Counted from the first letter of the stretch, positions 3,248 through 27,983 are shown. The stretch is DNA of 37,689 nt from a virus (IMGVR_UViG_3300014613_000055:1-37689), one strand, 5' to 3'. Notes: generated by a model not told the origin, from the sequence alone. A program made the numbers and translations.

Positions 3248-3290
3248 ATGGCTTCAGGAATTGATAGGTAACAGGAAACTATTTATTAAT

Positions 3291-5684: not shown

Positions 5685-5752
5685 AGCTCAGAGTGTAAGC
5701 TCGTGCCGACACTATAATCTCGTGCATGATTCACAGGAAGGGGGTGAATAAT

Positions 5753-6568: not shown

Positions 6569-6608
6569 ACCTCTGTCTAGGCTTTGCTTAGAAGGAGGTG
6601 AATAGATT

Positions 6609-7568
6609 ATGGCAGTAGTTGGACAAGGAATAAGCGGCGCAGCAAACGCAAACATCACGACAGGTGCACATATCTCAGCAGAGGTAAGTACCTATTATGA
6701 GAAAGTGTTTCTAGCCAGAGCGGAGTATGAGACCATCTTAGATGAAGGTGCTCAGAAAAGAACTCACCCTGTAAATGAAGGTAGGACTGTCAACTTTACT
6801 CGTTATGAGCCGTTGACAATCATTACTACCCCATTAGGTGAGGCTTCAAACCCCACAACTTGTGCTATTACAGCTTGTACCATATCAATGACTTTGTCAG
6901 AGTATGGTCTGACTGTAAACACATCTAGAATGTTGACGTTGGTTTCGATCGACAGCAATATGAAGGAGAAGGTGGAGCTTGTAGGCCAAAACATGGGTGA
7001 AACTCTAAATCAACTCGTAAGAGACGAATTACTTAACGGTACTTCTTATTACGGGAATGACCACGCCGTAACATCACTCGCAGCAGGAGATACTCTTGAT
7101 GCTTGTGATATTAGGATGGTTGTTAGGGACTTAGAGTTGGCTAAGGCGATGAAGTATAAAGACGGATTTTACATCGGTAAAACCGACCCTTACTCAAAGA
7201 TAAACCTTATGGCAGATACAGCTTGGCTTAACGCTAAGACATATTCTGACGTAAAGGATTTGTATAAGGGAGAAATGGGTGAATTGTTAGGAGTCAGGTG
7301 GCTTCTAAACAAAAATGTTTCTTCTGGGACAGAAGCAACGTCAGTAGCAGCTTCCGCAGTTGTACGTTTCTATACGTACATCCACGGAGATAATGCTTTC
7401 GGATGTTACGATCTCTCGAAAGATAAACCCAAGCTTTATATACTACCCAACGTAGTAGACTCAAACTCACCAGCCGGAAGGATTTCAATAATCACTTGGG
7501 CGGGAAGTTATGCAACCAAAGTACTGAACGATACATGGGTTCAGACTTGTAGGTTCACCGCAACATAA
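6609..7568 (+). CDS. Major capsid protein, N4-gp56-like family
   Basis: GRTVNFTRY, LSEYG, GEMGELLGVRW motifs; strong AGGAGGTG SD; position after scaffold. Confidence 0.88.
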   Translation: MAVVGQGISGAANANITTGAHISAEVSTYYEKVFLARAEYETILDEGAQKRTHPVNEGRTVNFTRYEPLTIITTPLGEASNPTTCAITACTISMTLSEYGLTVNTSRMLTLVSIDSNMKEKVELVGQNMGETLNQLVRDELLNGTSYYGNDHAVTSLAAGDTLDACDIRMVVRDLELAKAMKYKDGFYIGKTDPYSKINLMADTAWLNAKTYSDVKDLYKGEMGELLGVRWLLNKNVSSGTEATSVAASAVVRFYTYIHGDNAFGCYDLSKDKPKLYILPNVVDSNSPAGRISIITWAGSYATKVLNDTWVQTCRFTAT

Positions 7569-7629
7569 GCGGTATGGGTTGTTGGAGCGGATTCTCTTTG
7601 TTTCCGCTCCAAACAAAGGGAACAACTCT

Positions 7630-7908
7630 ATGGACGAAGGAAGAAAACACGATCTAAAAGAATTAGACAAGGCACGCAAAACGGCTCCCGACAAGGAGAC
7701 GCTACATAACATTGGAAAAGTAGAAAGAACTATCAAAAACGAACAACACGATGGTTTTAGGAGAAGTGCCAGAGAAGCATTAGTAAAAGCAGGCAAGTCG
7801 GGTAGACCAGGAAATATACAAGACGTACAGGAAAGAATAAAGAAAAGCGAAAGCAAGGGAATAGGCAAATCAACTTTCCTTATTTCCTTGCCAAAAGGAA
7901 TGAGATAG
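7630..7908 (+). CDS. Basic hypothetical protein
   Basis: ORF track 7579-7908; ATG 7630 more plausible because 7576-7628 is structured RNA. Confidence 0.6.
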   Translation: MDEGRKHDLKELDKARKTAPDKETLHNIGKVERTIKNEQHDGFRRSAREALVKAGKSGRPGNIQDVQERIKKSESKGIGKSTFLISLPKGMR

Positions 7909-7916
7909 TGTATAAT
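7888..7916 (+). promoter_or_regulatory. Sigma70-type promoter of the modification cluster
   Basis: TTGCCA-17 bp-TATAAT. Confidence 0.75.
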
Positions 7917-7958
7917 TCGCAGGTTAGGCTTTGAAGACTGAAATTGATTGTTCTTTTA

Positions 7959-7988
7959 GCCACGCCATTGGGGCGTGGTATTTTTGTT
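7959..7988 (+). terminator. Intrinsic terminator-like hairpin in the leader
   Basis: GCCACGCC-ATTGG-GGCGTGGT then ATTTTTGTT. Confidence 0.7.
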
Positions 7989-8000
7989 GGCTAAAAAGGC

Positions 8001-8768
8001 ATGAAAGCATACATAACAGGATCGAACGGATTTATAGGAACACACCTCAAAAAGAGGTTGGATAACTTCGTTGCTATTCCCCACAAAGAGATTAGATCAA
8101 TCAAACTAGAACCCTACGACAATTTTTACTTCTTATCAGCTTATGGGAACATGGCTTTCCACGATGAAGACGAAAAGATACTCCAAGCAAACATCCTCGA
8201 CCTAATCAGTATCCTCAAACAGCACAAGAAATTTAAGTCATTCGTCTACGTTAGCACTTCAAGCGTTAGATTGCCAAGACAGACAATGTATTCAAGAACC
8301 AAGAAAGCAGCCGAGGAAATTTTATTGTCATTTATGGAGAAATATGACGTTCCTATCTGCATAGTTAGACCATTTTCGGTTACTGGTGTAGGTGAACAGA
8401 AAGAACACTTAATTCCCTCACTGATACGTTCCTGTATTGACGGAGATCAGATGAATTTTGTACCAGGGCCAGTCCACGACTTTATAGATGTAGAAGATGT
8501 GGTTGATGGAATTGTTAATTTATCTTCTCACTCCGCAAGAGGGATATATGACTTAGGAACAGGCAAACAGGTTTCCAATCAAACAATATTAGAAATCGTC
8601 CAAGAAGTTACCGGCAAGACGGCAAATATCAATGTTATCAAAAAAATGAGGGACTACGACACAAACGAGTGGGTTTCACTCAACTACAAAGCAAGAGGGT
8701 ATGGTTGGCTTCCCAAAAAAGGATTACAGCAATCTATTGAAGAAATGGTGAAGGAGTACAAGAAATGA
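8001..8768 (+). CDS. NAD-dependent NDP-sugar epimerase/dehydratase (extended SDR)
   Basis: TGSNGFIG, STSSV, YSRTK, RPFSVTG, DFIDVEDV motifs. Confidence 0.92.
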   Translation: MKAYITGSNGFIGTHLKKRLDNFVAIPHKEIRSIKLEPYDNFYFLSAYGNMAFHDEDEKILQANILDLISILKQHKKFKSFVYVSTSSVRLPRQTMYSRTKKAAEEILLSFMEKYDVPICIVRPFSVTGVGEQKEHLIPSLIRSCIDGDQMNFVPGPVHDFIDVEDVVDGIVNLSSHSARGIYDLGTGKQVSNQTILEIVQEVTGKTANINVIKKMRDYDTNEWVSLNYKARGYGWLPKKGLQQSIEEMVKEYKK

Positions 8769-9379
8769 ATGAGTTAGAAAAAAGAATAATTGAAATTAGT
8801 TATAAACACAAGCTATCCCATCTTAGCTCTTGTTTGACATCGGTTAATTTGATTGATGCGATATATAAGTCCAAGAAAAAGGATGAACCATTCATTCTAA
8901 GTAATGGACACGCAGCTCTCGCCTTATATGTAGTATTAGAAAAGTACGAAGGCAAAGATGCTGAGAAATTATATGATAAACACGGCACGCATCCCAATAG
9001 AAACTTAAAAGATGGTATTTATTGTTCAACTGGATCACTAGGACAAGGACTGACTATTGCTGTGGGTATGGCTTTGGCTGATAAATCAAGAAATGTCTAT
9101 GTAATGAGTTCTGATGGTGAAATGGCCGAGGGAGCTTGTTGGGAGGCACTAAAAATCGCTTCAGGGCTTAGGATTGAGAATTTAAGGCTAACTGTGAACG
9201 CTAATGGCTACACGGCTCTAGGTAGAACAGATTCCGACCTTTTAGACTTGAGGTTGCAGTTCTTTTACCCTTGTTTGGTGATTAAGACTAACCTATTCGG
9301 TTGGCCTGATTGGTTGCAGGGAGTTGATGGACATTATGTAGTTATGGATAAAGAAATGTACGAGGAGGTAATGAAATGA
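8765..9379 (+). CDS. Transketolase-like ThDP enzyme, N-terminal subunit
   Basis: LSNGHA, STGSLGQG, SDGEMAEG...N ThDP motif. Confidence 0.92.
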   Translation: MNELEKRIIEISYKHKLSHLSSCLTSVNLIDAIYKSKKKDEPFILSNGHAALALYVVLEKYEGKDAEKLYDKHGTHPNRNLKDGIYCSTGSLGQGLTIAVGMALADKSRNVYVMSSDGEMAEGACWEALKIASGLRIENLRLTVNANGYTALGRTDSDLLDLRLQFFYPCLVIKTNLFGWPDWLQGVDGHYVVMDKEMYEEVMK

Positions 9380-9528
9380 AAACAATTAGAACCATAATAA
9401 ATCACCTTGAGGCTATGCACTTTGCAAACGCACAGTCTCCGCAAAATGAAAAAGCAGAAGGGTATAAACAAGCCCTTGATGATGTTCTCGCTTGGTTAAA
9501 AGGATATGAAAAAACACAACAGTATTAG
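9376..9528 (+). CDS. Small hypothetical protein (50 aa) between the transketolase halves
   Basis: Read manually; ATGA overlap; GAGGAGG SD; GYKQALDDV helix. Confidence 0.55.
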   Translation: MKTIRTIINHLEAMHFANAQSPQNEKAEGYKQALDDVLAWLKGYEKTQQY

Positions 9529-10006
9529 AGGTTGGTTTGCTTACGAGCTTTACCAACAAATGAAGAAGAATAAGGACATTTACCTTATTACACCAGATTT
9601 GGGGTATAAAATGCTTGACAAAATCAAGGAAGACTATCCCGACAGATTCTTTAATGTGGGAGCGTCAGAACAAGCTGCCGTAGGCATAGCAATAGGGCTA
9701 GCACAAGAGCAAAAAATACCTTTTGTTTATTCGATAACACCATTTCTATTATACAGGCCCGCAGAGTGGATTAGAAATTATCTCCACAAAGAAAATGCCA
9801 ACGTCAAATTAGTAGGAGCAGGAGTTGGAAAGGATTACAAAGAGGACGGATTTACTCATTGGTCGGATGAGCCTTACAACACACTAATAAGCAGATGGCC
9901 GAATATCAGACAGTTTTGTCCTAACGAGAAAGAAGAATTGCCGAAAATAGTTGAAGAAATGGTAAAGAACAATAAACCAAGTTTTTTACATTTGAGGAGG
10001 AGGTGA
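9506..10006 (+). CDS. Transketolase-like enzyme, pyrimidine-binding subunit
   Basis: DLG, RFFNVGASEQ, GLAQE..IPFVYS, GFTHW motifs. Confidence 0.92.
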   Translation: MKKHNSIRGWFAYELYQQMKKNKDIYLITPDLGYKMLDKIKEDYPDRFFNVGASEQAAVGIAIGLAQEQKIPFVYSITPFLLYRPAEWIRNYLHKENANVKLVGAGVGKDYKEDGFTHWSDEPYNTLISRWPNIRQFCPNEKEELPKIVEEMVKNNKPSFLHLRRR

Positions 10007-10012
10007 TGAGAA

Positions 10013-10186
10013 GTGATTAGAAGAAAGAAGATTACAAAAGCGGAAATAGAAGAGTTAAAGAATTTATTGCTACCAGAGACACAGCGAGATGATGCTGGAA
10101 TACTCGAATTAGCAACAGCAGCTCTTGTTAGCGATTTGCACAAAAACAAAATATCAAGAATAAGAGCATTGGTAAATAAACTTTGA
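10013..10186 (+). CDS. Small hypothetical protein (57 aa)
   Basis: Read manually; GTG start after GGAGGTG; fills the gap and overlaps the next start. Confidence 0.5.
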   Translation: MIRRKKITKAEIEELKNLLLPETQRDDAGILELATAALVSDLHKNKISRIRALVNKL

Positions 10187-11046
10187 TGAATAATGAATAC
10201 TTAATGTTTAGGCACACGCTTTCTAAGGACAAGTACAAAGTACCCATAAAGTACGAGGATAAGGTCAAGAGAGTTGACCCTGATGTTATAGAAAGCAAAC
10301 TAAGGAGTAAGGGTAAAGCAATCTTCCTAAGCGGAGGATTGGATAGTTCGTTATTGGCGGCAATTAACAAGCCCGAAAGAGCCTATACAGCACTATTCTT
10401 TGATGAGGATGGCGAAAGGGAGTGGCTTTGGGCAAGAAAGGTCGCAGACCGCTTGGACATTTCCCTCATTCCTGTAGGCATTACAAGAGAAAGATATTTG
10501 TCAACACTAGAATACCTAATTAAACAAAAAGGAGACGGACTTCATCCCAACGAACCCTGTCTTTACCTAATGGCACTTCAGGCCAAGAAAGACGGATTTG
10601 ACACAATTATATCCGGTGAGGGTGCAGACGGGTTGTTTGGAGGCTATACCGACTTACTAATAAACGAAGATAAGATTATGAAGGATGAGCCTACTTTTAG
10701 AAAAAGATACCTACAAATAGATACAGGCGATCCAATTCCCTTTGAGAAGTGGCGAGAATGGGGAATGTATCGATTTTTACTAGAAGTTCACACACCAGGA
10801 TTAATAGATAGAGCGGTCAATGCTTGCAACTCAGCAGGAATGAAAGTAGAGTTTCCTTACCTAGAGAATGGCATACCTCAGTTAATGTGGAACGCTCCAA
10901 TGGGACAGAAGATAGACAAGCCCATTCTAAAAGAGATCGCTAACAAGTATTTACCAAGAGAAATCATTTACAGGAAGAAAGTTGGGTTCCCTGTTCCCTG
11001 GGACACTAAAGAGTTCTTATTCCTAAATAAGGAGATATGCGTGTAG
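10183..11046 (+). CDS. Asparagine-synthase-like N-type ATP pyrophosphatase (no glutaminase domain)
   Basis: LSGGLDSS PP-loop, SGEGADGLFGGY, KKVGFPVP. Confidence 0.9.
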   Translation: MMNNEYLMFRHTLSKDKYKVPIKYEDKVKRVDPDVIESKLRSKGKAIFLSGGLDSSLLAAINKPERAYTALFFDEDGEREWLWARKVADRLDISLIPVGITRERYLSTLEYLIKQKGDGLHPNEPCLYLMALQAKKDGFDTIISGEGADGLFGGYTDLLINEDKIMKDEPTFRKRYLQIDTGDPIPFEKWREWGMYRFLLEVHTPGLIDRAVNACNSAGMKVEFPYLENGIPQLMWNAPMGQKIDKPILKEIANKYLPREIIYRKKVGFPVPWDTKEFLFLNKEICV

Positions 11047-11423
11047 GTTATACAACAGGCGTGTTTGATATGTTTCATATCGGGCACCTTAATATTTTGA
11101 GAAACGCCAAGGCTATGTGCGACAAGCTAATAGTAGGTGTCTCTACTGATGAATTAGTCAAAGAAAAAGGCAAGAAATGCAAGATACCATTTGAACAAAG
11201 AATTGAGATAGTCAGAAACATTAAATTCGTTGACTTGGCAGTTCCCCAAGCAACAACCAACAAACGACATGAGTGGGAGAAATTAAGGTTCAATATCGTA
11301 TTCGTAGGTGATGATTGGTTTGGCAACAAAGAGTGGAATAAATATGAGAGCGAGTTAAGTAAGGTGCAATTTATCTATTTCCCATATACGAAAGGAGTCT
11401 CATCAACAAGTTTACGAAAATAG
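11037..11423 (+). CDS. Cytidylyltransferase, TagD/glycerol-3-phosphate type
   Basis: GVFDMFHIGH (HIGH), GVSTDE, VGDDW, YTKGVSST. Confidence 0.93.
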   Translation: MRVGYTTGVFDMFHIGHLNILRNAKAMCDKLIVGVSTDELVKEKGKKCKIPFEQRIEIVRNIKFVDLAVPQATTNKRHEWEKLRFNIVFVGDDWFGNKEWNKYESELSKVQFIYFPYTKGVSSTSLRK

Positions 11424-11467
11424 AGCAACATTTAATAGACACAACCGAATATCTGAAAAGCATCGGC

Positions 11468-11959
11468 TTGACTACTTTTTTGATTGGATCTACTTTGTTG
11501 CAAATAGTTAGGAATGGAGAATTCAAGGAACGCCATCAGTTTGACAGAGAGATAAACGTGGGCTGCAAAGAAGAGGACTTTACGCCAGCCATGAGAGAGA
11601 GAATTACCAAGGACTTTAAGAGAACTGAGTGGCATGATGGTTTTTGTCTTTTTGGTAATCAAGATGATACCTTTTGGCAGGGCGAAGGGTCATATTTTTC
11701 CCTGCTTGGAAAATTTAAGATATATAAAAACGATAGAGTTGAAAACATGGGGATAGGGAATTATTTAGTTTGGCCGAAAAAACATTTGAAAACACTAAAA
11801 CAGATTAACTATAAGGGTTATACGTTCAATGTTCCTAATTATAGATTTAAGTGGCTAGAACATTATTACGGTAAACATTGGGAGGAAGAAGATTTATCTT
11901 GGAATTGGTCAAATGCTGCAAATCTTAAAAAAGTTTCAGAAAATTCAGATTTGGGGTGA
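11468..11959 (+). CDS. LicD-family phosphotransferase
   Basis: GSTLLQIVRNG..FDREINVG resembles LicD GTLLGAVR..DDDID; YKGYTFNVP..LEHYYG C-terminal motif; next to a cytidylyltransferase. Confidence 0.72.
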   Translation: MTTFLIGSTLLQIVRNGEFKERHQFDREINVGCKEEDFTPAMRERITKDFKRTEWHDGFCLFGNQDDTFWQGEGSYFSLLGKFKIYKNDRVENMGIGNYLVWPKKHLKTLKQINYKGYTFNVPNYRFKWLEHYYGKHWEEEDLSWNWSNAANLKKVSENSDLG

Positions 11960-12630
11960 TTATGATGAAGAAAAAAATAGAGTTAAATGCGTTATTCTAC
12001 CCAGGAGGAAATGTCAAATTTGAAAGTTTGTATATACCGTATATATACAGGGAAATATACTTTGAAGGAATATATCAGAACCTTGTCGATAATTTCAAAG
12101 ATATGGTTGTTGTTGATGTAGGAGCAAACATTGGCATTGTTACTCAATATCTAAGAGACTACGCCAAGAAGTTATATGCCGTTGAGCCTTCAAGTGAACA
12201 TTTCGAAGCTCTCAAGAAGAACAAAGAATTTAACAAGTGGGACAACGTAGAAGTATTTAACGTAGCGATAGCTGATAAAGATGGCGAGATGGACTTTCAT
12301 ATCAATACAACGAATAGAACTTGTCATAGTTTAACTCAAGATATAGGTTTCGGTTATACCGATACTGAAAAAGTTAAAACGATGGCGATGGACTCATTCT
12401 TCAAGGAAAACAAGATTGGGGAAGTGGATTTTATGAAGTTTGATGTGGAGGGAGCAGAAGATATGATTTTACGAAGCGAAGGATTTGCCAAAGTTGCACC
12501 CAAGATTAAGAGAATCATGGTTGAGTTCCATCATCCAACATGGCCTAAATTAGTACAACATATGAGCACATTGGGCTACACAGCAAACAGATATGAAAGT
12601 TCGGCAGTGGTTGTTTTATTTTCAAGATGA
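11956..12630 (+). CDS. FkbM-family SAM methyltransferase
   Basis: VDVGANIG, AVEP, FMKFDVEGAE, VEFH. Confidence 0.93.
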   Translation: MIMMKKKIELNALFYPGGNVKFESLYIPYIYREIYFEGIYQNLVDNFKDMVVVDVGANIGIVTQYLRDYAKKLYAVEPSSEHFEALKKNKEFNKWDNVEVFNVAIADKDGEMDFHINTTNRTCHSLTQDIGFGYTDTEKVKTMAMDSFFKENKIGEVDFMKFDVEGAEDMILRSEGFAKVAPKIKRIMVEFHHPTWPKLVQHMSTLGYTANRYESSAVVVLFSR

Positions 12631-13274
12631 AGTTCAAAAACAAATTAATGTGGTTGAATACTGGTAACGGAACGGCGGGGTATCAACTCAATCTCATGGA
12701 GTATTTGATGACAAAGTTTCGCAAAGACTTTGTTGTTTTGGAAGTGGGAAGTGCCTATGGGGGGGCTGTCGAGATGATGACGCAGGTTGCAAACCATGAA
12801 TTGGGTAGGGAAAACGTGTCTGTTTATGGATACGATACTTTTGAAGGACACCCCAAGGATTTGGCCGATGATCCGAACAGTATGGAAGCAAAAGTCATGG
12901 ATGAATGGTACACAACGGAAGGGTGCGAAAAAGACAAGTTATCTTACGATTATCAAAGAAAGATACTCGATGATTTGGGCTTAACCAACGCTCATCTAGT
13001 TAAGGGTCGTGTAAACAAACACTCATTTGACGATATTAAGAAAGTTCACCTGGCAATGCTGGACATGGATTTAGTAAAACCAACCAAGGTGGCTTACCAC
13101 GCATTAAAAGACAAAATTGTTAGTGGTGGTTTTATGATGTTCCACGATGCCTACCCACCAGAACACCTACCACTTCTTTACGACTTTGTTAAAAATGAAG
13201 TTATAACGGATGAAAGATGGAGACTTGATGAAGTGTCTAGGGAAGGTTATTTTGTAGCATTAGAAAGAAAATGA
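12627..13274 (+). CDS. TylF/MycF-like sugar O-methyltransferase
   Basis: LEVGSAYGG, YGYDTFEG, LVKG, LDMDL, GGFMMFHD. Confidence 0.85.
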   Translation: MKFKNKLMWLNTGNGTAGYQLNLMEYLMTKFRKDFVVLEVGSAYGGAVEMMTQVANHELGRENVSVYGYDTFEGHPKDLADDPNSMEAKVMDEWYTTEGCEKDKLSYDYQRKILDDLGLTNAHLVKGRVNKHSFDDIKKVHLAMLDMDLVKPTKVAYHALKDKIVSGGFMMFHDAYPPEHLPLLYDFVKNEVITDERWRLDEVSREGYFVALERK

Positions 13275-14035
13275 AAGTAGTCTTTTTTACATTGGTTTCA
13301 GACGATTACTATTATCTTTGTGGAACACCACAATTTATCAATTCGTTTAAGTGGTTTCACCCAGATATTGATTTAGTCGTGTTTAGACAAGATATGGTAG
13401 ATAAGGTTTTCAAAAAGAAAGACATTAACTTCTACATGGCTAAACCTACTTTTGCCAAACTATTGACCCCACATTACGACTTAGTGGTCAATATAGATGC
13501 GGACAGCATTATTTTGGGAAGGTTAGATGAAATATTAAAAGGAGATTACGATATAGGTGGAGTTATGAACCTTAACGATTATGAGAACAGGACCATAGAG
13601 AACGTAAGCGAGGAGATGTACTTAAATGCCGGATTGATAGCTTCAACCAACAAGAAGTTTTGGGATATTTGGGAGAAGTCTAACAAAGACGCTATGAATT
13701 ATGTTTGCAAGGAAAACGACAAAATGAACCTTGTCATTTACAATGACCCCGAAGTAAAGAAAATGAAGTTAAAGGTTTTCGACAAAGAAAAAGATTATTA
13801 TGGTTGCAAGAGCCTTAATCGAGAGGGTGAGTTTTATGTAGCAGAAGAAAAAGTCTATGACACACCTACTACGAACGTAATGTGTCGAGATGAAAGAGTA
13901 TTTATTTATCATAACGCCAAGGGAGCGTTATTTCCCAAACTGAATTTTAGCAAGATGGGCTTCCCTCCTGAAGTTGTTAAGCGCATGAATGTTCTATCTA
14001 TGTATGGCAAGTCAGTTAGATATGGAGGATTTTGA
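13271..14035 (+). CDS. GT-A fold glycosyltransferase (GT8-like)
   Basis: NSFKWFHPD, IDADSII (DxD), YLNAGL, END..N, YHNA. Confidence 0.75.
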   Translation: MKVVFFTLVSDDYYYLCGTPQFINSFKWFHPDIDLVVFRQDMVDKVFKKKDINFYMAKPTFAKLLTPHYDLVVNIDADSIILGRLDEILKGDYDIGGVMNLNDYENRTIENVSEEMYLNAGLIASTNKKFWDIWEKSNKDAMNYVCKENDKMNLVIYNDPEVKKMKLKVFDKEKDYYGCKSLNREGEFYVAEEKVYDTPTTNVMCRDERVFIYHNAKGALFPKLNFSKMGFPPEVVKRMNVLSMYGKSVRYGGF

Positions 14036-14793
14036 AACATAGACCTTACAGTATAATGACACCGCCTTTTGAGCCGCTTTCGGGAGGTATTCGTGTCATG
14101 TATGGACTTTATGGGTGGTTGTTGGCAAAAGGGCAACTTGCTTACTTAAACGCTACTTTTGAAAGTCCGAACTTTGTTGCGGTTTATCCTGAGATTTATC
14201 AAGGCAATATCACGGGGTCTAACAACGTAGTTAGGTATATTCTTCAAACTCCTGGTGTTATGAATTTATATGGTGTTCCTGGCGAGACCACCTTCCCCAA
14301 GAATGACAAGATATTTGTTTTTTCAAAGATTTATGACACTTTTGGGGTAGATGATGACCATTTAATGTTCTTACCTATTCTTAACCTTCATTTATTCAAG
14401 GATTATGGGAAGAAACGCAAGAAAACCTGCTATATGGTGGGAAAAGGGGAAAACCAACACAATCACCCAGAACACTCATTTGAATTGACAAGAGAGTTTG
14501 CTTTAGATCAGAGAGCATTAGCAGACAAACTCAACGAGTGCCAAACGCTATATATCTATGATAGGTGTTCGGCAATGATGGAAATTGCTCGATTATGTGG
14601 GTGCAGGGTGAAATACTACGGGAACTTCAAAAAGGAAGATTTAGAAAAGTACGAGCCTGGAATGAACGGTATTACTTACAAAGATGAGGAAGATATACCT
14701 CTTGATGTGGATGCTTTCAATGAACACTATCGAGGAATGATTAAATTATTTGAGAAGAAATTAGACAAATTTATAGAAATAACCCAAAAATGA
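14032..14793 (+). CDS. Putative glycosyltransferase-like protein
   Basis: SGGIRVM start, VYPEI..GN....VVRY, YD..SAMMEIARLCGC; GT-B-like; cluster context. Confidence 0.6.
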   Translation: MKHRPYSIMTPPFEPLSGGIRVMYGLYGWLLAKGQLAYLNATFESPNFVAVYPEIYQGNITGSNNVVRYILQTPGVMNLYGVPGETTFPKNDKIFVFSKIYDTFGVDDDHLMFLPILNLHLFKDYGKKRKKTCYMVGKGENQHNHPEHSFELTREFALDQRALADKLNECQTLYIYDRCSAMMEIARLCGCRVKYYGNFKKEDLEKYEPGMNGITYKDEEDIPLDVDAFNEHYRGMIKLFEKKLDKFIEITQK

Positions 14794-15338
14794 TAATGCT
14801 CAATTTAGGTTGTGGATTAAGGCAGCGAAAAGGATTTATAAATGTAGATAATTATGTGGAAAAATCGGGGAAAGCGAAATTCGTTAAGGCAGATATACGG
14901 AAGTTGCCTTTTGAGAACGATTATGCTGATTATGTTGAAATGATGAGCGTATTAGAACACATACCATTTAATGATGTGTTGAAGGTTCTAGCTGAGATTA
15001 GCAGAGTAATGAAGCCTGGAGCGGAATTGGTTATCCAAACAGAGAACTTTGACGGTATCGCTTTAGATTGGGCAAGAATGTGTATGGAAGGCTGGAACCC
15101 ACAAGAATATATGAATGTTATGGAAACAGTTTATGGCAATCAGAGACACGAAGGGGAATTTCACAAAACGGCTTTTAATCCAAGATTTATGGATGCTTGT
15201 TTAAGGGCAGTAGGATTCAGAATTAAAAGTATGGCAAACTATCCCAAAAACTCACCTATACCTGAATTCGGCACTGTTCCAGCAGACCCCAAAAGATTTC
15301 TAAGAAGCGACCAATTATTAGCAGTAGCAATCAAATGA
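14790..15338 (+). CDS. Class I SAM methyltransferase (Methyltransf_11-like)
   Basis: LNLGCG, DIRKLPF, VLEHI, RVMKPG. Confidence 0.9.
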   Translation: MIMLNLGCGLRQRKGFINVDNYVEKSGKAKFVKADIRKLPFENDYADYVEMMSVLEHIPFNDVLKVLAEISRVMKPGAELVIQTENFDGIALDWARMCMEGWNPQEYMNVMETVYGNQRHEGEFHKTAFNPRFMDACLRAVGFRIKSMANYPKNSPIPEFGTVPADPKRFLRSDQLLAVAIK

Positions 15339-15883
15339 AGAAATATCAAATAATTTATGCAGACCCACCATGGGCTTATAACGACAGGAGGAATAAACAC
15401 ACGAGGTTTTGTGGTGGAGCAATGGTTCATTACTCAGTAATGGATTACAAGAAAATAGGCAAGATTCCTGTTGAAGATATAGCAGATAAAGATTGCGTTC
15501 TGTTTTTATGGGCAACCTACCCCAATTTAATAGAAGCACTTTACACAATGGATGCATGGGGATTTGTTTACAAGACGATTGGGTTCAATTGGGTTAAAAC
15601 AAATAAAAATAATGGCAAACCCTTCTTTGGAATAGGTTATTACACTAAGTCAAATAGCGAGGCTTGTTTGATTGGAGTTAAGGGTAAGCCTAAAGTAAAA
15701 AGCAATTTTGTTTCTCAAGTTGTAATGTCTCCACGAAGAGCGCATAGCCAGAAACCAGACGAGGTTAAAGAGAAGATAGTTGAACTTATGGGAGACATTC
15801 CGAGGGTCGAACTATTCGCAAGACAAAAAACAAATGGTTGGGATGTATGGGGAAATGAAGTGGAAAGTGATGTAAAACTATGA
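15335..15883 (+). CDS. MT-A70-family N6-adenine methyltransferase
   Basis: IYADPPW, LFLWAT, HSQKP, ELFAR, WDVWGNE. Confidence 0.93.
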   Translation: MKKYQIIYADPPWAYNDRRNKHTRFCGGAMVHYSVMDYKKIGKIPVEDIADKDCVLFLWATYPNLIEALYTMDAWGFVYKTIGFNWVKTNKNNGKPFFGIGYYTKSNSEACLIGVKGKPKVKSNFVSQVVMSPRRAHSQKPDEVKEKIVELMGDIPRVELFARQKTNGWDVWGNEVESDVKL

Positions 15884-16971
15884 AGAAAATTAAAATATTT
15901 TGCCTTCCATCTCACCAAACTAAAGAAAGAACCTCCGGCGTAGATATGGTGAGGATAATTCAACCTATGCAACACTTAGACAAACACAAAGATTTCGAGG
16001 TTACAATATTTGACATACACAACAAAGACCACGATGATCCGACCAAAACAAGGTGGGACAACGTAGCTGAAGAACACGACATTATTTACCTTAATTATAT
16101 AGGTAATGCTTGGGCTTTTGCGGCGATGGGGGCAATGGCTCGCAAGTACAATAGGAAGATAGTTTTTGACCTTGATGATGACCTTTGGGGCATAGGAGAA
16201 GACAACCCTGCGTACAAGGTCTATCATACGGGGAGCGAAGCCTTAAAGAACTTTACCTCAATGTGCAACGAAGTAGACTATATGACTACTACCAATTTAT
16301 ACCTTAAACACGTAATCGCTCACAATACTTACAAGAAACACGACAAGATTAAGATATTTCCTAATTATATTGATTTCAAGCTATATAATCACAGACCCAA
16401 GTTCAAAGATACTCCCAAGATACAACTATTACACTTTGGATCAACAACTCATTTCCTTAGCTTACAAAATGAAGAATTTATGAAAGGAATAGACAAGATT
16501 TTCAAAGAATTTCCAAATGTTACTCTAAAGACTGTAGGTGCATTTCTTCCCAAGTACAAGGCCAAATGGGGAGAGAGATACGAGAACGCTCTAGGCCACC
16601 AAGATGTTTATAAGTGGATTAAAGATAAATTCCCAGGATATATGGATGAAGCAGATATTATAGTAGCTCCACTTGAAGACAATTTATATAACCGTTGCAA
16701 GAGTGATATTAAACGTACTGAGAGTGCAAGTGCCAAGAAACCATTTATTGGTCAAGACCTGAGACAATACAAAGAAGTCATAGATGATGGTGTAGATGGG
16801 TTTATTGCCGGAAGCGAAGAAGACTGGTATCAGAAGATTAGAGCGTTAATAGAAGACAAAAAGTTACGAAAGAGTATGGGTGAAGCCGGATTCAAACGAG
16901 TAAGTGAAACGAGGCAAATGAAAGACCACGTACAAGATTATGCGGATTTCTTCAAGGAGATTCTTTCCTAG
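15880..16971 (+). CDS. GT-B fold glycosyltransferase (GT4-like)
   Basis: RIIQP, FDLDDDL, FPNYID, DIIVAPL...NRCKSDIK, DGVDGFIA, LRKSMGE. Confidence 0.88.
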   Translation: MKKIKIFCLPSHQTKERTSGVDMVRIIQPMQHLDKHKDFEVTIFDIHNKDHDDPTKTRWDNVAEEHDIIYLNYIGNAWAFAAMGAMARKYNRKIVFDLDDDLWGIGEDNPAYKVYHTGSEALKNFTSMCNEVDYMTTTNLYLKHVIAHNTYKKHDKIKIFPNYIDFKLYNHRPKFKDTPKIQLLHFGSTTHFLSLQNEEFMKGIDKIFKEFPNVTLKTVGAFLPKYKAKWGERYENALGHQDVYKWIKDKFPGYMDEADIIVAPLEDNLYNRCKSDIKRTESASAKKPFIGQDLRQYKEVIDDGVDGFIAGSEEDWYQKIRALIEDKKLRKSMGEAGFKRVSETRQMKDHVQDYADFFKEILS

Positions 16972-17090
16972 TTCTTTTTCTTAAATTTCTTCACCACTTT
17001 TGCGACAAAAGTAAATAGCGTAGCAAAGACAATGAAAGTTGCCGCTACCATAAACGACCACCAAAGTATTACTACAATCATTCTTCCCAT
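16968..17090 (-). CDS. 40-aa single-TM membrane peptide (MGRMIVVILWWSFMVAATFIVFATLFTFVAKVVKKFKKKN)
   Basis: Read manually; hydrophobic helix plus basic tail; fills the intergenic gap; own promoter. Confidence 0.7.
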   Translation of the reverse strand: MGRMIVVILWWSFMVAATFIVFATLFTFVAKVVKKFKKKN

Positions 17091-17097
17091 AGTAAGT

Positions 17098-17127
17098 ATT
17101 GTAACACATATTACCTTTGGGTGTCAA
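17098..17127 (-). promoter_or_regulatory. Leftward promoter (leaderless transcript) for the membrane peptide
   Basis: Minus strand TTGACA-18 bp-TACAAT with TGn extension, 7 nt before ATG. Confidence 0.7.
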
Positions 17128-17136
17128 TTTTAGTGG

Positions 17137-17165
17137 TTGACAAAGAAAACAGAGAAGCGTATAAG
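17137..17165 (+). promoter_or_regulatory. Rightward promoter of the ejection-protein operon
   Basis: TTGACA-17 bp-TATAAG. Confidence 0.65.
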
Positions 17166-17205
17166 TAAGTTGTAGGTTAATCGACGTACAAGGTTACGAT
17201 CATAA

Positions 17206-17246
17206 CCTCACGAAAACACAATGTGTGTGGACGTGGGGATTTTTTT
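17206..17246 (+). terminator. Terminator-like hairpin in the leader
   Basis: CCTCACG...CGTGGGG then ATTTTTTT. Confidence 0.65.
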
Positions 17247-17256
17247 GTGTAATAAA

Positions 17257-18474: not shown

Positions 18475-18489
18475 ATCTAGCCATTAAAC

Positions 18490-19080
18490 ATGGCTAGCAT
18501 ATTAGACTTACCAGAGAGAATAAAAGCATATCTCCAAGAGAGGTGGGATAGTTTTGCTAATCCCGACCCTATTATGATATACGCTGATGATTACCAAAAG
18601 CCTCAACTCCAACAGGAACAACCACCCCAACAACCACAATTTGTTCCACAACAATTTGATGTTAATAGAGCCATAGGTGTATATGGGAACAACTCACCTT
18701 TTCAGCAATTCGCTCCCCAGATACAACAGGCTTACGAGAAGTATCCTTTCTTAAAGAACAATCCCGAACTTATACCATTAATAGGACACTTAGAGACTTC
18801 TTCTGGCAAGAACATAACCCGACCTAATAACTTACTAAATTGGGGAATCAACTTTCCAGGGAACAATGAAATATTTGCAGGTATGAACCAAAGATCAGTA
18901 TTAGACAGGGCACTATCAGGATTAGGAGAAAGAAGCCCTTACTACTCACAATTCAGAACAGGCCAGCCTATGACTGACGAAGAATTAATGCAATTTGCGA
19001 AAGTATATGAACCGGCCAACGATTCCTATGGCCCAAACCTTATTCAAGGAAGAAACTTTATTAGAGGGCAATTAAGATGA
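18490..19080 (+). CDS. Probable virion-associated lysozyme-fold muramidase/glucosaminidase-like protein
   Basis: HLETSSGK...NNLLNWG...YEP pattern; position in the ejection module. Confidence 0.55.
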   Translation: MASILDLPERIKAYLQERWDSFANPDPIMIYADDYQKPQLQQEQPPQQPQFVPQQFDVNRAIGVYGNNSPFQQFAPQIQQAYEKYPFLKNNPELIPLIGHLETSSGKNITRPNNLLNWGINFPGNNEIFAGMNQRSVLDRALSGLGERSPYYSQFRTGQPMTDEELMQFAKVYEPANDSYGPNLIQGRNFIRGQLR

Positions 19081-24261: not shown

Positions 24262-24271
24262 ATGTCTAAAA

Positions 24272-24949
24272 ATGGCAAAAGTAATAACAGACCTAGATGA
24301 CGCTATCGATTACATAAACACGCTTTATGAATCTGACAGCACAGCCCCTACATCGGGAGATGAGGATTATGCCGTATGGATGGCACTTTTGAATGTAGCC
24401 ATCAATCTATGGGAGAATGAAGAGGGCGTACTTTGGAATGAGTTATTCGTCAAATTAGACGATGCGGCTACCGGAGACAAAACAGCTTCTGCAGGAGATT
24501 GGTCTTACGATTGCCCTGATGACTTCGCTTTTCCAGCTTCAGGATATGTTTGGATAGGTTCGGGAACGAATAAGATTGCCTATAAGGTAATCAAACAACA
24601 AGAAGTCCAACTTCACGAAAACAACTCAGGAAGGTGGTGTTACTTCTTAATGGATGGTTCTCCAACATTAGAATTTAATCCAAATTGTACAGTATCGGCT
24701 GGAACGATTAGATACAACTATTACAAAATCGCTACTGCGTTGACCACGGGTACAGACGTAATTGAAATGGCTGACCCGATGTTTGCGGTTTATTACGCAT
24801 TATCAGAACTCAAGAAAGAAGAAGGCGATACTTCTTCGCTTGTTATTGCTCAACAAAAACTGGAAGGAATGAAAACAAAAAATATCATGCCTACATGGTT
24901 TCAGTCAGACAATTTGATGGACAAAACAGGTGAAGGATTCGGAACATGA
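24272..24949 (+). CDS. Head-tail adaptor / tail tubular protein A-like
   Basis: 225 aa, LLNVAI..W, YDCPDDF, YNYYK, VYYAL patterns; precedes the nozzle gene. Confidence 0.7.
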   Translation: MAKVITDLDDAIDYINTLYESDSTAPTSGDEDYAVWMALLNVAINLWENEEGVLWNELFVKLDDAATGDKTASAGDWSYDCPDDFAFPASGYVWIGSGTNKIAYKVIKQQEVQLHENNSGRWCYFLMDGSPTLEFNPNCTVSAGTIRYNYYKIATALTTGTDVIEMADPMFAVYYALSELKKEEGDTSSLVIAQQKLEGMKTKNIMPTWFQSDNLMDKTGEGFGT

Positions 24950-26955
24950 AATTTCAAACACAACAAAAAACCAAACCAAAAGAAATTCTATTATCTATCG
25001 ACAAGTTCGATGGCGGTTCTAATTCATTAGTAGATGAGGCAAGAATGGATCCAAAGTTTGCCAAAGAAAGCGTCAATCTAATGCAAGTGCAGGACTCTTT
25101 GTGGAAAACAAGGTGGGGGACTGGATACTATGGAGCGACCCACGCTTCAACAATAGATGGCGCTCAAGAGTTTGTTAAGTCAGACGCTTCTACTGAATTG
25201 ATTACGATTACCAATGGTAAGGCTTACAAATCAACTGACGGAGGAGCTTTGACTGAAATATCGGGAGCAACCTTTACAGCAGGAACACAATGCTACTTCA
25301 TGCAGATTGCCGGATACTTATATATAGCCAATGGGACAGACGCTTTGGCTAGATACAATGGTACGTCTTTAAGTACTTATACAGAAATAGCCGCCCCCGC
25401 TAATTTAACAGCTTCATTAGTAGCTTCAGGACTTGCTAGTGGTGCTTATACTTATTACGCCCAAGTGACTGCTCTTAACGCAGTGGGCGAAACAGTGGGG
25501 TCAACAGAAGCCTCAATAACTTGTTGTGAATTAAGAGATAACTGGACAGCAGGTACAGACAAAGTTCATTGGTCTTGGGATGCGGTTGCCACTGCTGATC
25601 GTTATCAACTATATATATCAGACCAAACAGGATATGAGAATTTATTAACCTCCACAACAGAAATTAACTTTGAAGATGATGGTTCAATCGAGATTAATAC
25701 ATATATAGAAACTCCCGATGCTAACACTACTGGTGCGCCCAAATTTACTTCGATGGCTGTTTCTAATAACAGAATATGGGCCACCAATGACACTAACGAT
25801 AAATACAAGGTTTACTTCTCAGGTACGGGACAATTTATGGGCAATTTCTCAGACTTTTATGGTGGTGGTTGGATCAACCTAGAAAAAGGAGGGAGAGAGT
25901 TGCCAGTTGTGGTTAAACACTATCAAAGTGGTAGCGGAGAAGGAAGAGCAACCGTATTGTGCAGAACGCCTGATGGCAAGGGTTCTGTTTGGCAACTAAC
26001 TATTTCAACAGCGACGGTGGGAGATACTTCATTTTCAATTCCATCGGCGGCTAAAGTGGTGGGGTCATTTGGTACAGAATCGTTGTTGGGAGTGGTAGCA
26101 ACTGAGAACGATATTGCTTTCCCTAATCGAAAAGGTTGGTTTACTTTAGGGCCAGAAAAGAACTACTACGGCATTTTAAGAACTAGCGAGAAAAGCTCGA
26201 ATATACGGCCTTATTGGAGAAGTCTAAGGGGTAGTAAAATAGGTGATATATGTGCTTACTTCTATGACGCTAAAATTATTATTTCAGTTCCCCGCTCTTC
26301 TACTGGTAACGACAGAATGATTGTTTACGACACCGAAAGAAATAACTGGTCGGTTGATTGGTCGATAGGAGCAAAACAGTTCCTAGAATATACCGATACT
26401 AGCAACAACACTAGATTACTTTACATTCCATTATCGGGAACGAGATTAATCGAATTATCCGAAAACTACCTTAACGATTTGGGAACAGTATTTAATCAAT
26501 CTTACATTTCTCCGCTTCTACCGGTATCTAAAAAGAAGACAGATATTTTGAATTTAAGGGAAGCGATAGTTGAACTCGGAAGGCCAAGAGGAGTAGTCAA
26601 GTTTCAGATTTTGGGAATAGGAAAAGGTTCTAGTTTTACTACCCTAGCAACAAGAACAATTACAGACTTTGGCTCAAATACGGGCGTGGGGACTGATTTG
26701 CTAGGAGAGTCTTATTTAAGCGAAACCCAAGCCAGTGCTAAAAAGGTAGCAACGGTTTGGACAGTTTACTTAACAGATTCTCCTTCAACATTCGCTCAGG
26801 CAACGACTAAGGCGGCAATCAAGAAACGAGCCAAAGTTTATGCTTTGCAGTTCAAAGTATTCTCCACAACCGCAGATACGGACTTTACACTTTTATCTTT
26901 ACAGGCAAAAGGAAACCTAATTCCTAGGAGGCTTCCTTCAAGTTGGACAAACTAA
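24946..26955 (+). CDS. Tail nozzle / tubular protein B-like (beta-propeller)
   Basis: FDGG start, KTRWG, NNRIW, VYFS, VYD...W repeats; beta-rich with an Fn3-like insert. Confidence 0.7.
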   Translation: MKFQTQQKTKPKEILLSIDKFDGGSNSLVDEARMDPKFAKESVNLMQVQDSLWKTRWGTGYYGATHASTIDGAQEFVKSDASTELITITNGKAYKSTDGGALTEISGATFTAGTQCYFMQIAGYLYIANGTDALARYNGTSLSTYTEIAAPANLTASLVASGLASGAYTYYAQVTALNAVGETVGSTEASITCCELRDNWTAGTDKVHWSWDAVATADRYQLYISDQTGYENLLTSTTEINFEDDGSIEINTYIETPDANTTGAPKFTSMAVSNNRIWATNDTNDKYKVYFSGTGQFMGNFSDFYGGGWINLEKGGRELPVVVKHYQSGSGEGRATVLCRTPDGKGSVWQLTISTATVGDTSFSIPSAAKVVGSFGTESLLGVVATENDIAFPNRKGWFTLGPEKNYYGILRTSEKSSNIRPYWRSLRGSKIGDICAYFYDAKIIISVPRSSTGNDRMIVYDTERNNWSVDWSIGAKQFLEYTDTSNNTRLLYIPLSGTRLIELSENYLNDLGTVFNQSYISPLLPVSKKKTDILNLREAIVELGRPRGVVKFQILGIGKGSSFTTLATRTITDFGSNTGVGTDLLGESYLSETQASAKKVATVWTVYLTDSPSTFAQATTKAAIKKRAKVYALQFKVFSTTADTDFTLLSLQAKGNLIPRRLPSSWTN

Positions 26956-26993
26956 TATGAAAAATAATTTAACAAGAATGGTGGTGATATAAA

Positions 26994-27983
26994 ATGGCAG
27001 CAAGTAATACAGATTTATTCAAGAAGTGTGCTCGTAAATGGGTTGGTCAAATCGGATCAGGAGGAGTTGCGGATGATTCAACAGCAACGATTCCTTTGGC
27101 CTCAGTTACTAATTTACCGACTGACACAGCTGTTGTGGCGGTTATTGACAGAGTTGATGCCAATGGCACAAAGACTCCAACCACGGAAGAGTCTGTTATC
27201 GGCGTTGTTTCGGGAACTGATTTAGTTACCTGTACCAGAGGGGCGGAGGGGACAGCCCAAGCTCATTCAGCCGGTGCAGTGGTTGAAATTTTAATCACCA
27301 ATCAGGGTTGGGGAGACCTGATTAGTGGAATTTTGGTTGAACACAATCAATTAGGCGGACACACCAACATTACAGCTTCTAACATTACAGCAAGTGCGGT
27401 AATGACAGCCTTGCACGTAGATTTGATAGCAAGCGGAGACTTGAGGGATGCAAATAATAATGAATTATTAAAATTCACTCAGACTGCATCAGCAGTCAAT
27501 GAGTTTACGGTAGCCAACGCAATAACGGGAGGAGGTCCAACAGCGTGCGCAACAGGTTCAGACACAAACATAAGTATTAACCTAGTACCAAAAGGTACAG
27601 GTAGAGTTCAATCAAATTCAGTAACAGTTCCTACGATTTCATCTACGGATACTCTTACTAACAAGAGAATAACCAAAAGACTTGTTACAACAACTGATGA
27701 TGCTACCGCAGAAATTGATACGGATAGTTATGACGAATATGAGTTGTCAGCAGTAGCCAACGCAACGACATTTACTTTAACAGGAACACCAACTGACGGA
27801 CAAACATTGATTGTAAGAGTTAAAGATGCGGGAGTTACTAAAGGACTAACTTGGACTGGTTTTACCGCAGTAGGCGTTACACTCCCCACAGCCACAACTG
27901 CAGGAAAATGGCACTATGTCGGCTGTAAATACAACTTGGGGGATACTGCATGGCACGCAATAGCAGTGACAGAGGAGGCATAA
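26994..27983 (+). CDS. Tail fibre/spike protein
   Basis: TRGAEGT..AHSAGA motif, TDTLTNKRI and PTDGQ motifs; T/A-rich. Confidence 0.75.
   Translation: MAASNTDLFKKCARKWVGQIGSGGVADDSTATIPLASVTNLPTDTAVVAVIDRVDANGTKTPTTEESVIGVVSGTDLVTCTRGAEGTAQAHSAGAVVEILITNQGWGDLISGILVEHNQLGGHTNITASNITASAVMTALHVDLIASGDLRDANNNELLKFTQTASAVNEFTVANAITGGGPTACATGSDTNISINLVPKGTGRVQSNSVTVPTISSTDTLTNKRITKRLVTTTDDATAEIDTDSYDEYELSAVANATTFTLTGTPTDGQTLIVRVKDAGVTKGLTWTGFTAVGVTLPTATTAGKWHYVGCKYNLGDTAWHAIAVTEEA

What the first reader, a model, noticed from the sequence alone, without database searches (positions are those of the whole stretch)
8001..16971. Self-contained ~9 kb glycan biosynthesis and decoration operon directly after the capsid gene
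Seen: about a quarter of the genome encodes an epimerase, split ThDP transketolase-like subunits, a glutaminase-less Asn-synthase-like enzyme, cytidylyltransferase + LicD, FkbM, TylF-like and class I methyltransferases and three GT-like proteins. They sit under a leader of the same design as the structural operons. Known: ThDP enzymes in polysaccharide loci add C2 branches to NDP-keto sugars; CTP transferase + LicD transfers polyol- or choline-phosphate onto glycans; Asn-synthase homologues amidate uronic acids; virion glycosylation by phage GTs is reported for some actinobacteriophages. Inference: a complete pathway to build a complex methylated, phospho-substituted glycan on virion proteins; host-surface or DNA modification are the alternatives.
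Basis: partly seen in the sequence, partly recalled or inferred. Interest (0 to 1): 0.85.

Follow-up and report, generated by a model that had tools for sequence, protein, structure and literature searches.

The report
Phage's own rare-sugar coating pathway
A small uncultured groundwater phage and its relatives keep a fixed block of seven sugar-building and sugar-attaching genes between their head and tail genes, which most likely coat the virus particle with an unusual methylated, probably branched sugar chain, although no glycan or acceptor protein has been shown.

Summary
The window is a complete 37.7-kb podovirus-like genome; its host is probably a Microgenomatia (CPR) bacterium. Seven genes (SDR, split miniature transketolase, FkbM methyltransferase, GT-A, minimal GT-B, GT4) form a core kept in order between capsid and ejection genes. 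The marker GT-B is in 10 of 10 near-complete relatives. The pathway is not self-contained: no NDP-sugar-forming enzyme or 4,6-dehydratase. There are no membrane enzymes, integrase or thymidylate-synthase-type base modifier. In relatives an extra GT2 cassette comes and goes with a Ser-Pro-repeat protein (3 both, 46 neither, 0 discordant of 49). Best reading (0.6): cytoplasmic glycosylation of virion proteins with a transketolase-modified sugar. GT-plus-methyltransferase cassettes beside capsid genes are known, and this scan noted them on other phages. The conserved transketolase-based sugar core was not found in nine literature searches. New variant of a known kind.

The parts
6609..7568 (+). 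Major capsid protein, N4-gp56 family; candidate glycan acceptor (conserved Ser/Ala-rich stretch at residues 238-249)
   Evidence: TIGR04387 E 1e-39; S239 27/30, S245 25/30, S249 26/30 in alignment A5; acceptor role is inference
7579..7908 (+). Small conserved ORF between capsid gene and operon, function unknown
   Evidence: Homologues in 34 hits among the 80 loci; no family
7888..7990 (+). Sigma70-type promoter (11/12) followed by a GC hairpin and U-run; same layout as the portal, ejection-gene and adaptor leaders
   Evidence: the hairpin alone is not unusually stable (z -0.72)
8001..8768 (+). CORE 1: compact NDP-sugar SDR (likely epimerase or reductase)
   Evidence: PF01370 E 2.4e-18; G7/G13, S88, Y97, K101 invariant in 28 sequences; lacks the acidic pair of 4,6-dehydratases (motif recalled)
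8765..9379 (+). CORE 2: transketolase ThDP-binding chain, shortened to 204 aa
   Evidence: PF00456 E 1.7e-14; best PDB hit split transketolase 6yak; H19, H49, H76, S116-D-G, E122, N147, H190 invariant in 26 sequences
9376..9528 (+). 50-aa ORF, no homologue in the loci, possibly a passenger
9506..10006 (+). CORE 3: transketolase pyrimidine-binding chain, no C-terminal domain, altered acceptor site
   Evidence: PF02779 E 4.8e-17; best PDB hit 6yaj; E55, D114, H118 invariant; G106 (His in 6yaj) invariant; residue 35 (Ser in 6yaj) never Ser in 27 sequences
10013..10186 (+). 57-aa ORF, shared only with L004
10183..11046 (+). ACCESSORY: Asn-synthase-like ATP-dependent amide ligase without glutaminase domain
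   Evidence: PF00733 E 1.8e-33; aligns to AsnB synthetase motifs; 2 of 25 relatives
11037..11423 (+). ACCESSORY: TagD-like cytidylyltransferase
   Evidence: PF01467 E 5.9e-20; TIGR01518 95.8 bits, below its 165.4 cut-off; 4 of 25 relatives
11420..11959 (+). ACCESSORY: LicD/FKRP-like nucleotidyltransferase fold, degenerate motif; start uncertain (ATA at 11420 or TTG at 11468)
   Evidence: No Pfam hit; FKRP E 0.55; HHalign 97% to a PF04991-positive protein; frame open from 11363
11956..12630 (+). CORE 4: FkbM-family SAM methyltransferase
   Evidence: PF05050 E 4e-20, TIGR01444 above cut-off; 23 of 25 relatives
12627..13274 (+). ACCESSORY: TylF-like O-methyltransferase
   Evidence: PF05711 E 7.2e-08; 0 of 80 capsid-selected loci, but 29-39% homologues near the transketolase pair in other phage groups
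13271..14035 (+). CORE 5: GT-A glycosyltransferase, GT8/GT77-like, DxD at D76-D78
   Evidence: Profile hit WbbM E 5.9e-08; tied top fold matches PBCV-1 capsid GT 2p6w, GlyE, glycogenin, Skp1 galactosyltransferase
14032..14793 (+). CORE 6: minimal GT-B glycosyltransferase with no Pfam family; marker of the cluster
   Evidence: 735 homologous 90%-clusters; 10 of 10 near-complete relatives
14790..15338 (+). ACCESSORY: class I SAM methyltransferase
   Evidence: PF08241 E 2.2e-11; 0 of 80 loci
15335..15883 (+). PASSENGER: MT-A70 family N6-adenine DNA methyltransferase (DPPW)
   Evidence: PF05063 E 6.5e-31; PHROG 359; the only homologue in the 80 loci lies upstream of the capsid gene in L010, outside the cluster
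15880..16971 (+). CORE 7: GT4-type GT-B glycosyltransferase
   Evidence: PF13692 E 1.3e-09; PHROG 7162; 21 of 25 relatives
24946..27983 (+). Putative nozzle and tail fibre (named from position and layout), S/T-rich alternative acceptors
   Evidence: S+T 0.21 and 0.23; follow the SU10 adaptor; acceptor role is inference

Best explanation
This is a seven-gene core, conserved across a family of podovirus-like phages, that likely builds a rare sugar and attaches a short methylated glycan to the phage's own virion proteins in the cytoplasm. Inferred steps: (1) the host supplies an NDP-sugar, probably already as a keto intermediate; (2) the miniature two-chain transketolase adds a two-carbon hydroxyacetyl unit, giving a C-branched or extended sugar, and the SDR either makes the keto group or reduces the new side chain; (3) the soluble GT4, GT-A and minimal GT-B enzymes prime a Ser/Thr on the capsid, nozzle or fibre and extend it; (4) FkbM O-methylates the chain. 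Strain-specific extras (second methyltransferases, acetyltransferase, amide ligase, CDP-polyol plus LicD-like transferase) vary the coat. Shown: gene identities, folds, conserved catalytic residues, fixed order and position, absence of membrane parts. Not shown: any product, acceptor or timing.
For: Position and conservation: the core lies between capsid and ejection genes in 21 of 25 loci with at least 8 kb downstream; the other 4 are cut by the flank and their full records carry the marker GT-B (some loci are near-copies). Marker in 10 of 10 records at least 90% complete. Of 67 IMG/VR marker loci, 54 have this family's layout and 13 are distant. In the 8 distant ones annotated, it sits beside terminase, portal, capsid or baseplate genes, with either SDR plus transketolase or an acetyltransferase, aminotransferase or GT2 set. 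Natural experiment: of 49 distinct loci spanning capsid to SDR, 3 have both a GT2 cassette and a Ser-Pro-repeat protein, 46 have neither, 0 are discordant (Fisher p 5e-5, not corrected for kinship). With L017, the pairs fall in three separate places of the capsid tree (quick tree). No cluster protein has a hydrophobic stretch (max 19-residue hydropathy 1.45). Host-class copies of the same SDR-transketolase cassette instead lie beside GT2 and, in 3 of 4, PMT-type membrane transferases. The leader matches three structural operons in this genome. Precedent: capsid and tail-tube glycans in mycobacteriophages (Freeman 2023, seen only as cited in PMC12619734); Megavirinae glycogene clusters (abstract).
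Against: No glycan, acceptor or expression timing is shown. Fold matches are tied among protein, lipid and polysaccharide GTs and give no acceptor. The attenuated leader is not conserved at the SDR: promoter plus terminator in 3 of 39 relatives, against a promoter in 18 of 39, so early expression is possible. This genome lacks the Ser-repeat protein, so that correlation speaks directly only for the GT2 cassette. L006 and L075 show Ser-repeat proteins without GT2 in view (truncated contigs). L043 runs from capsid to an adaptor-like gene with no cluster between (record 30% complete). Capsid S+T enrichment is small (0.176 against 0.13-0.15, 3 controls). A 45-75% identical GT block sits in a Levybacteria chromosome, so the enzymes may also work on cellular acceptors. 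Transketolase branching of keto sugars is unproven for any enzyme.
Confidence: 0.6

Rival explanations
1. Host-surface or host-protein conversion during infection: the phage enzymes feed a new sugar into the host's glycosylation machinery, or modify pilin or surface proteins, to block superinfection or change attachment to the partner cell.
For: The SDR has an unattenuated sigma70-type promoter in many relatives (promoter 18 of 39, with terminator 3 of 39). The same SDR-transketolase cassette is in chromosomal glycan loci of 4 of 201 Microgenomatia-class genomes, and a phage-type GT block is in G001. Published work reads nucleotide-sugar genes of CPR phages this way, without experiment (PMC12911398 section 8).
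Against: No membrane, lipid-carrier or export component. No tyrosine integrase in 0 of 35 records while the control rang in 14 of 14. Fixed position inside the morphogenesis block, also in unrelated phage groups. The marker GT-B is in only 1 of 401 host-class genomes.
Confidence: 0.17
2. DNA hypermodification: the GTs put the rare sugar on a base or the backbone to block restriction.
For: An MT-A70 DNA methyltransferase is inside the operon. The GT-B fold is shared with T4 glucosyltransferases (ESM lead 0.83; rank 38). DNA-glycosylating clusters can lie near structural genes (10.1101/2023.12.21.572611 abstract and section 9).
Against: Thymidylate-synthase family 0 of 11 near-complete genomes (control 10 of 14). 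C5 methyltransferase 1 of 11 and not in this genome. No polymerase, primase or helicase hit in the window. MT-A70 is not part of the conserved core.
Confidence: 0.08
3. The cluster makes a soluble glycoside or modifies a host defence molecule or protein rather than a virion surface.
For: All enzymes are soluble. Top GT-B fold matches include small-molecule GTs. Split transketolases are proposed in nucleoside-antibiotic pathways.
Against: Gives no reason for the fixed place among head and tail genes, three core GTs, or the GT2/Ser-repeat pairing.
Confidence: 0.08
4. Metabolic auxiliary genes: the transketolase boosts pentose-phosphate flux and the rest are unrelated passengers.
For: Genuine transketolase catalytic residues.
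Against: No C-terminal domain in 78 of 78 viral homologues examined, and an SDR neighbour in 72 of 78. Two positions recalled as acceptor-phosphate binders are replaced throughout. 156 of 201 host-class genomes already have a match to the N chain.
Confidence: 0.04

Closest known systems
Mycobacteriophage virion glycosylation (Freeman et al. 2023, not held, seen only as cited; cluster J GT/methyltransferase insertion, PMC3706429 passage)
   Same: Several phage GTs plus a SAM methyltransferase inserted after the major capsid gene; soluble enzymes; glycans reported on capsid and tail tube.
   Different: The passages seen list no sugar-remodelling enzymes. Here an SDR plus miniature transketolase is part of a core kept across a family. 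Podovirus with a probable CPR host; no match to either Pfam-less GT among 50,697 GenBank phage records.
Megavirinae and chlorovirus autonomous glycosylation clusters (PMC10117803 abstract; PBCV-1 capsid GT 2p6w)
   Same: Clustered nucleotide-sugar enzymes, GTs and tailoring genes that vary by clade; the GT-A fold ties for top match with the PBCV-1 capsid GT.
   Different: Those are giant eukaryotic viruses with fuller precursor pathways. This is a 38-kb phage spending 24% of its genome and relying on host NDP-sugars.
ThDP-dependent branched-sugar synthesis: YerE/YerF and ErwE/ErwF; split-gene transketolases proposed for miharamycin and amipurimycin (PMC9306805 part 1 of 3; PMC12247030 passages and section 9)
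   Same: ThDP carboligase paired with an NAD(P)-dependent SDR beside glycosyltransferases.
   Different: Transketolase family, not YerE-like. Far smaller (204 + 166 aa, no C-terminal domain). The 13 split transketolases that review mentions are all from streptomycetes and uncharacterised.
Serine-rich-repeat protein glycosylation (streptococcal GtfA/B, Gtf3, GlyE; system recalled, structures listed)
   Same: Cytoplasmic GT-B and GT8-like enzymes; in relatives a Ser-repeat protein travels with its own GT cassette.
   Different: No accessory secretion genes seen; the Ser-repeat gene is optional and absent from this genome.

Membership tests
Phage virion-glycosylation cassette (mycobacteriophage type) | Phage-encoded soluble glycosyltransferases | tested here: met
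   GT4 by Pfam, GT-A and GT-B by fold, no hydrophobic segments
Phage virion-glycosylation cassette (mycobacteriophage type) | Located within the virion structural gene block | tested here: met
Phage virion-glycosylation cassette (mycobacteriophage type) | Glycan on a virion protein, dependent on the GT genes | not testable with these tools
   No cultured member; closest GenBank capsid 31% identical
Autonomous viral glycosylation cluster (Megavirinae type) | Cluster of six or more sugar-synthesis and transfer genes | tested here: met
   Seven-gene core plus extras
Autonomous viral glycosylation cluster (Megavirinae type) | Encodes its own NDP-sugar activation and first dehydratase steps | tested here: not met
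   No sugar-1-phosphate nucleotidyltransferase hit in the window; the SDR scores far below the dehydratase cut-offs and lacks their acidic pair (motif recalled)
YerE-like sugar-branching ThDP enzymes | Single-chain decarboxylase (AHAS-like) family | tested here: not met
   Best hits are transketolases
Split-gene transketolase, sugar-branching type (proposed) | Two genes with intact ThDP and catalytic residues beside an oxidoreductase | tested here: met
Split-gene transketolase, sugar-branching type (proposed) | Transfers C2 to a keto-sugar acceptor | not testable with these tools
   Not shown for any member
Housekeeping transketolase | C-terminal domain and acceptor-phosphate residues present | tested here: not met
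   166-aa chain against 341 aa in 6yaj; Ser replaced and His changed to invariant Gly in 27 of 27 (residue roles recalled)
LicD phosphotransferase | PF04991 match and metal-binding DxD | tested here: inconclusive
   No direct Pfam hit; E44-x-N46 at the motif; transitive HHalign 97%
DNA sugar-hypermodification cluster (Pyle et al.) | Thymidylate-synthase-like enzyme or C5 methyltransferase making the acceptor base | tested here: not met
   0 of 11 and 1 of 11 (not this genome); controls rang
DNA sugar-hypermodification cluster (Pyle et al.) | TET/JBP-type 5-methylpyrimidine dioxygenase | tested here: inconclusive
   0 of 11, but no control genome rang
Gtr-type serotype conversion | Membrane flippase, lipid-carrier GT and GT-C in a temperate phage (features recalled) | tested here: not met
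   No membrane proteins in the cluster; tyrosine integrase 0 of 35; serine recombinases not searched as a family

The most novel reading that the evidence does not exclude
A whole family of small phages of CPR bacteria wears an essential glycan coat containing a C-branched sugar made by a miniature transketolase, a reaction never shown for this enzyme class. It varies that coat, serotype-like, by swapping methyl, acetyl, amide and phospho-polyol tailoring genes, and trades the cassette with host surface-glycan loci, so many 'O-antigen' and 'transketolase' auxiliary genes of groundwater phages are virion-building genes.
Probability: 0.35. Interest if true: 0.8.

Novelty: new variant of a known kind. 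Interest (0 to 1): 0.62.

Why it matters
Virion glycosylation in tailed phages is documented for few phages, with glycosyltransferases alone in the sources seen here. A 38-kb phage family that keeps its own sugar-remodelling core would bring giant-virus-style glycan biosynthesis down to ordinary podoviruses. It would also recast a class of genes now counted as host-boosting metabolic genes. The 204 + 166 aa transketolase pair and the 253-aa GT-B are small soluble enzymes that make the open question of transketolase-catalysed sugar branching directly testable in E. coli or in vitro.

Tried and rejected
A shared 8-mer motif seen in the window's four leaders did not recur in relatives (0 of 9 portal, 0 of 17 ejection-gene, 2 of 18 adaptor, 3 of 18 SDR promoters): rejected. 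The idea that the window's SDR leader was inherited from a deleted head-accessory operon is unsupported: promoter-terminator leaders occur directly before the SDR in several relatives and rarely before the intervening genes. Expression: one groundwater metatranscriptome gave 23 contigs on 3000-22000, 19 at least 99% alike, with listed pieces in both cluster and ejection genes, but contigs show neither strand nor level and DNA carry-over is not excluded: no evidence on timing. Prophage search: the capsid profile gave one weak hit (E 2.3e-4, 43 positions) in 401 host-class genomes, not followed up. The Gracilibacteria-labelled contig L081 is an 8.7-kb phage fragment, and its genome had no capsid match; not used for host assignment. 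PDB sequence searches gave no useful hit for the GT-B marker, LicD-like, GT4 or capsid. GenBank transketolase hits were 24-35% identical and several are bacterial contigs. The Tet_JBP search had no ringing control. The careful capsid tree did not finish; the quick tree was used. No complex prediction was run. Look-alike search in the scan's notes by place was empty.

Full report
The genome. The window is the whole record G000, 37,689 nt. It is rated 100% complete, and a reading frame runs open across its two ends, so it is probably a circularly permuted complete genome. Gene order is podovirus-like: terminase, portal-like gene, scaffold-like gene, N4-gp56 capsid, the cluster, three genes in the position of ejection proteins, SU10 adaptor, putative nozzle and fibre, LamG protein, CHAP lysin (portal, scaffold, ejection, nozzle and fibre are named partly from position). 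No polymerase, primase or helicase was hit, and no tyrosine integrase in 0 of 35 records. All 7 runs holding the stretch are groundwater; 4 may be the source, and one independent run holds 0.62 of its words and laid 41 of 47 contigs at 99% or more.

The observation. The two GT-like ORFs without Pfam hits were modelled: 13271-14035 is GT-A, GT8/GT77-like and 14032-14793 is a minimal GT-B. Their best fold matches are tied and do not name an acceptor. LicD is supported only transitively. The leader claim holds in this genome: the 4 of 7 strong + strand promoter-like sites that are followed by a hairpin and U-run precede portal, SDR, ejection gene 1 and adaptor. In relatives that design recurs at portal (9 of 14), ejection gene 1 (14 of 39) and adaptor (16 of 30) but seldom at the SDR (3 of 39; a promoter in 18 of 39; internal genes 0-3 promoters and none with a terminator). 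The operon is its own transcription unit in many members, and late timing is not shown.

Core and accessories. The capsid protein found 107 relatives in IMG/VR, of which 80 were kept. Of the 25 loci with at least 8 kb downstream, the SDR was in 25, the transketolase chains in 24 and 23, FkbM 23, GT-A 22, minimal GT-B 21 and GT4 21; LicD-like was in 5, CTP-transferase 4, Asn-synthase 2, TylF 0 and class I methyltransferase 0 (some loci are near-copies). The 4 incomplete cases are cut by the 10-kb flank. A search of 34 of the longer records found the GT-B marker in 27, including 10 of 10 at least 90% complete. Relatives insert other tailoring genes at the same places: a second FkbM, acetyltransferase, cupin, nucleotidyltransferase. 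One short record, L043, shows no cluster between capsid and an adaptor-like gene.

The transketolase. Both chains keep the catalytic and ThDP-binding residues and match the split enzyme 6yak/6yaj best. They lack the C-terminal domain, and two positions recalled as acceptor-phosphate binders are replaced in all 27 sequences aligned. This fits a dedicated sugar-remodelling enzyme. PMC12247030 (passages and section 9) says branching by split transketolases is proposed but not demonstrated; PMC9306805 (part 1 of 3) describes the ThDP-enzyme-plus-reductase logic for YerE/YerF and ErwE/ErwF. The window has no enzyme to activate or dehydrate the sugar, so the pathway depends on the host.

Which acceptor. 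Three lines favour virion protein. First, position: 54 of 67 viral marker loci have this family's layout, and the 8 of 13 distant loci that were annotated lie beside terminase, portal, capsid or baseplate genes of other phage types, with different sugar-synthesis partners. Second, an extra GT2 cassette and a Ser-Pro-repeat protein of 840-1190 aa occur together in 3 of 49 fully spanned loci and are both absent in 46. Three further partial loci (L017, L119, L125) show both; L015 shows GT2 only and L006 and L075 show a repeat protein only, all on truncated contigs. The pairs fall in three places on a quick capsid tree, two with close sisters lacking both. Third, the cluster has no membrane component, whereas cellular copies of the SDR-transketolase cassette lie beside GT2 and, in 3 of 4, PMT-type membrane transferases. 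Against DNA: no thymidylate-synthase family in 11 and a C5 methyltransferase in only 1 of 11 near-complete genomes; the TET search was uninformative. The window itself lacks the repeat protein, so its acceptor would be the capsid (conserved Ser at 239, 245, 249), nozzle or fibre. That step is inference.

Host. The GT-B marker hit 2 contigs among the GTDB genomes, both Patescibacteria MAGs. One is a Levybacteria scaffold carrying mreB-like and other cell-wall genes (recognised from their sequences, not scanned), with a glycan locus whose genes are 45-75% identical to this family's core and GT2 genes. It was the only match in 401 genomes of that class, which suggests phage-to-host transfer. Four of 201 genomes of the class carry the phage-type transketolase at 49-66% over the matched part (the tally includes G071, flagged unpublished, on which no other claim rests). 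Only this class was sampled, so Microgenomatia is a likely, not proven, host.

Literature and novelty. Nine searches (listings and abstract starts) found no description of this cassette. PMC12911398 (passages, section 8, and 2 supplementary files with no hit for transketolase, FkbM, LicD or asparagine) and PMC12647753 (passages) treat sugar genes of CPR phages as host-surface auxiliary genes. PMC3706429 (passage) shows GT and methyltransferase insertions after the capsid gene in cluster J mycobacteriophages. Freeman 2023 was not held and is known only through citing passages. The VirGenes preprint (passages) does not mention transketolase; its supplements and those of the Pyle preprint could not be seen and may list related genes. 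Four earlier notes of this scan report GT-plus-FkbM cassettes beside capsid genes on other phages; they are unchecked and the lines shown mention no transketolase.

Verdict. A real, conserved system; most likely virion glycosylation with a phage-remodelled sugar (0.6). The general kind is known. The transketolase-based core, its conservation in a probable CPR phage family and the swappable tailoring set are new in what was searched. New variant of a known kind, interest 0.62.

Noticed in passing
window 3147-3250, 7888-7990, 17137-17250, 24163-24265: Structural operons each start with a near-consensus sigma70 promoter followed about 60-70 nt later by a terminator-like hairpin, a layout conserved across the family. 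It suggests late genes are switched on by antitermination; two small sigma70-region-4-like HTH proteins (32425-32580, 36588-36866) are candidates.
   Followed up: partly
L006, L017, L029, L073, L095, L119, L125: Proteins of about 650-1190 aa with long Ser-Pro repeats in the head operon, mostly paired with their own GT2 and methyltransferase cassette: a probable mucin-like virion fibre.
   Followed up: partly
L082 8665-17140 and L085 14581-18490 (G001): A Levybacteria chromosomal glycan locus contains a block 45-75% identical to this phage family's GT and methyltransferase genes with no phage structural gene in view; likely captured from a phage.
   Followed up: partly
L140, L142, L147, L148, L192, L210, L232 and others: Other phage groups carry the SDR plus miniature transketolase pair, often with TylF, next to a terminase-like gene.
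   Followed up: partly
L144-L146, L151, L152: The same minimal GT-B family paired with GT2s and, in L144-L146 and L152, a hexapeptide acetyltransferase and short DegT aminotransferase, between portal and prohead protease or after baseplate genes.
   Followed up: partly
window 11411-11470: The LicD-like gene lacks the ATG that L004 has; it may start at ATA 11420 overlapping the upstream stop, or be shortened at TTG 11468.
   Followed up: partly
whole window; 31590-32144: A complete genome with no recognisable replication gene; a 550-nt non-coding stretch may hold the origin.
   Followed up: no
L007 16844-18961: The GT4 gene is 705 aa and contains a LAGLIDADG domain, probably an intein.
   Followed up: no
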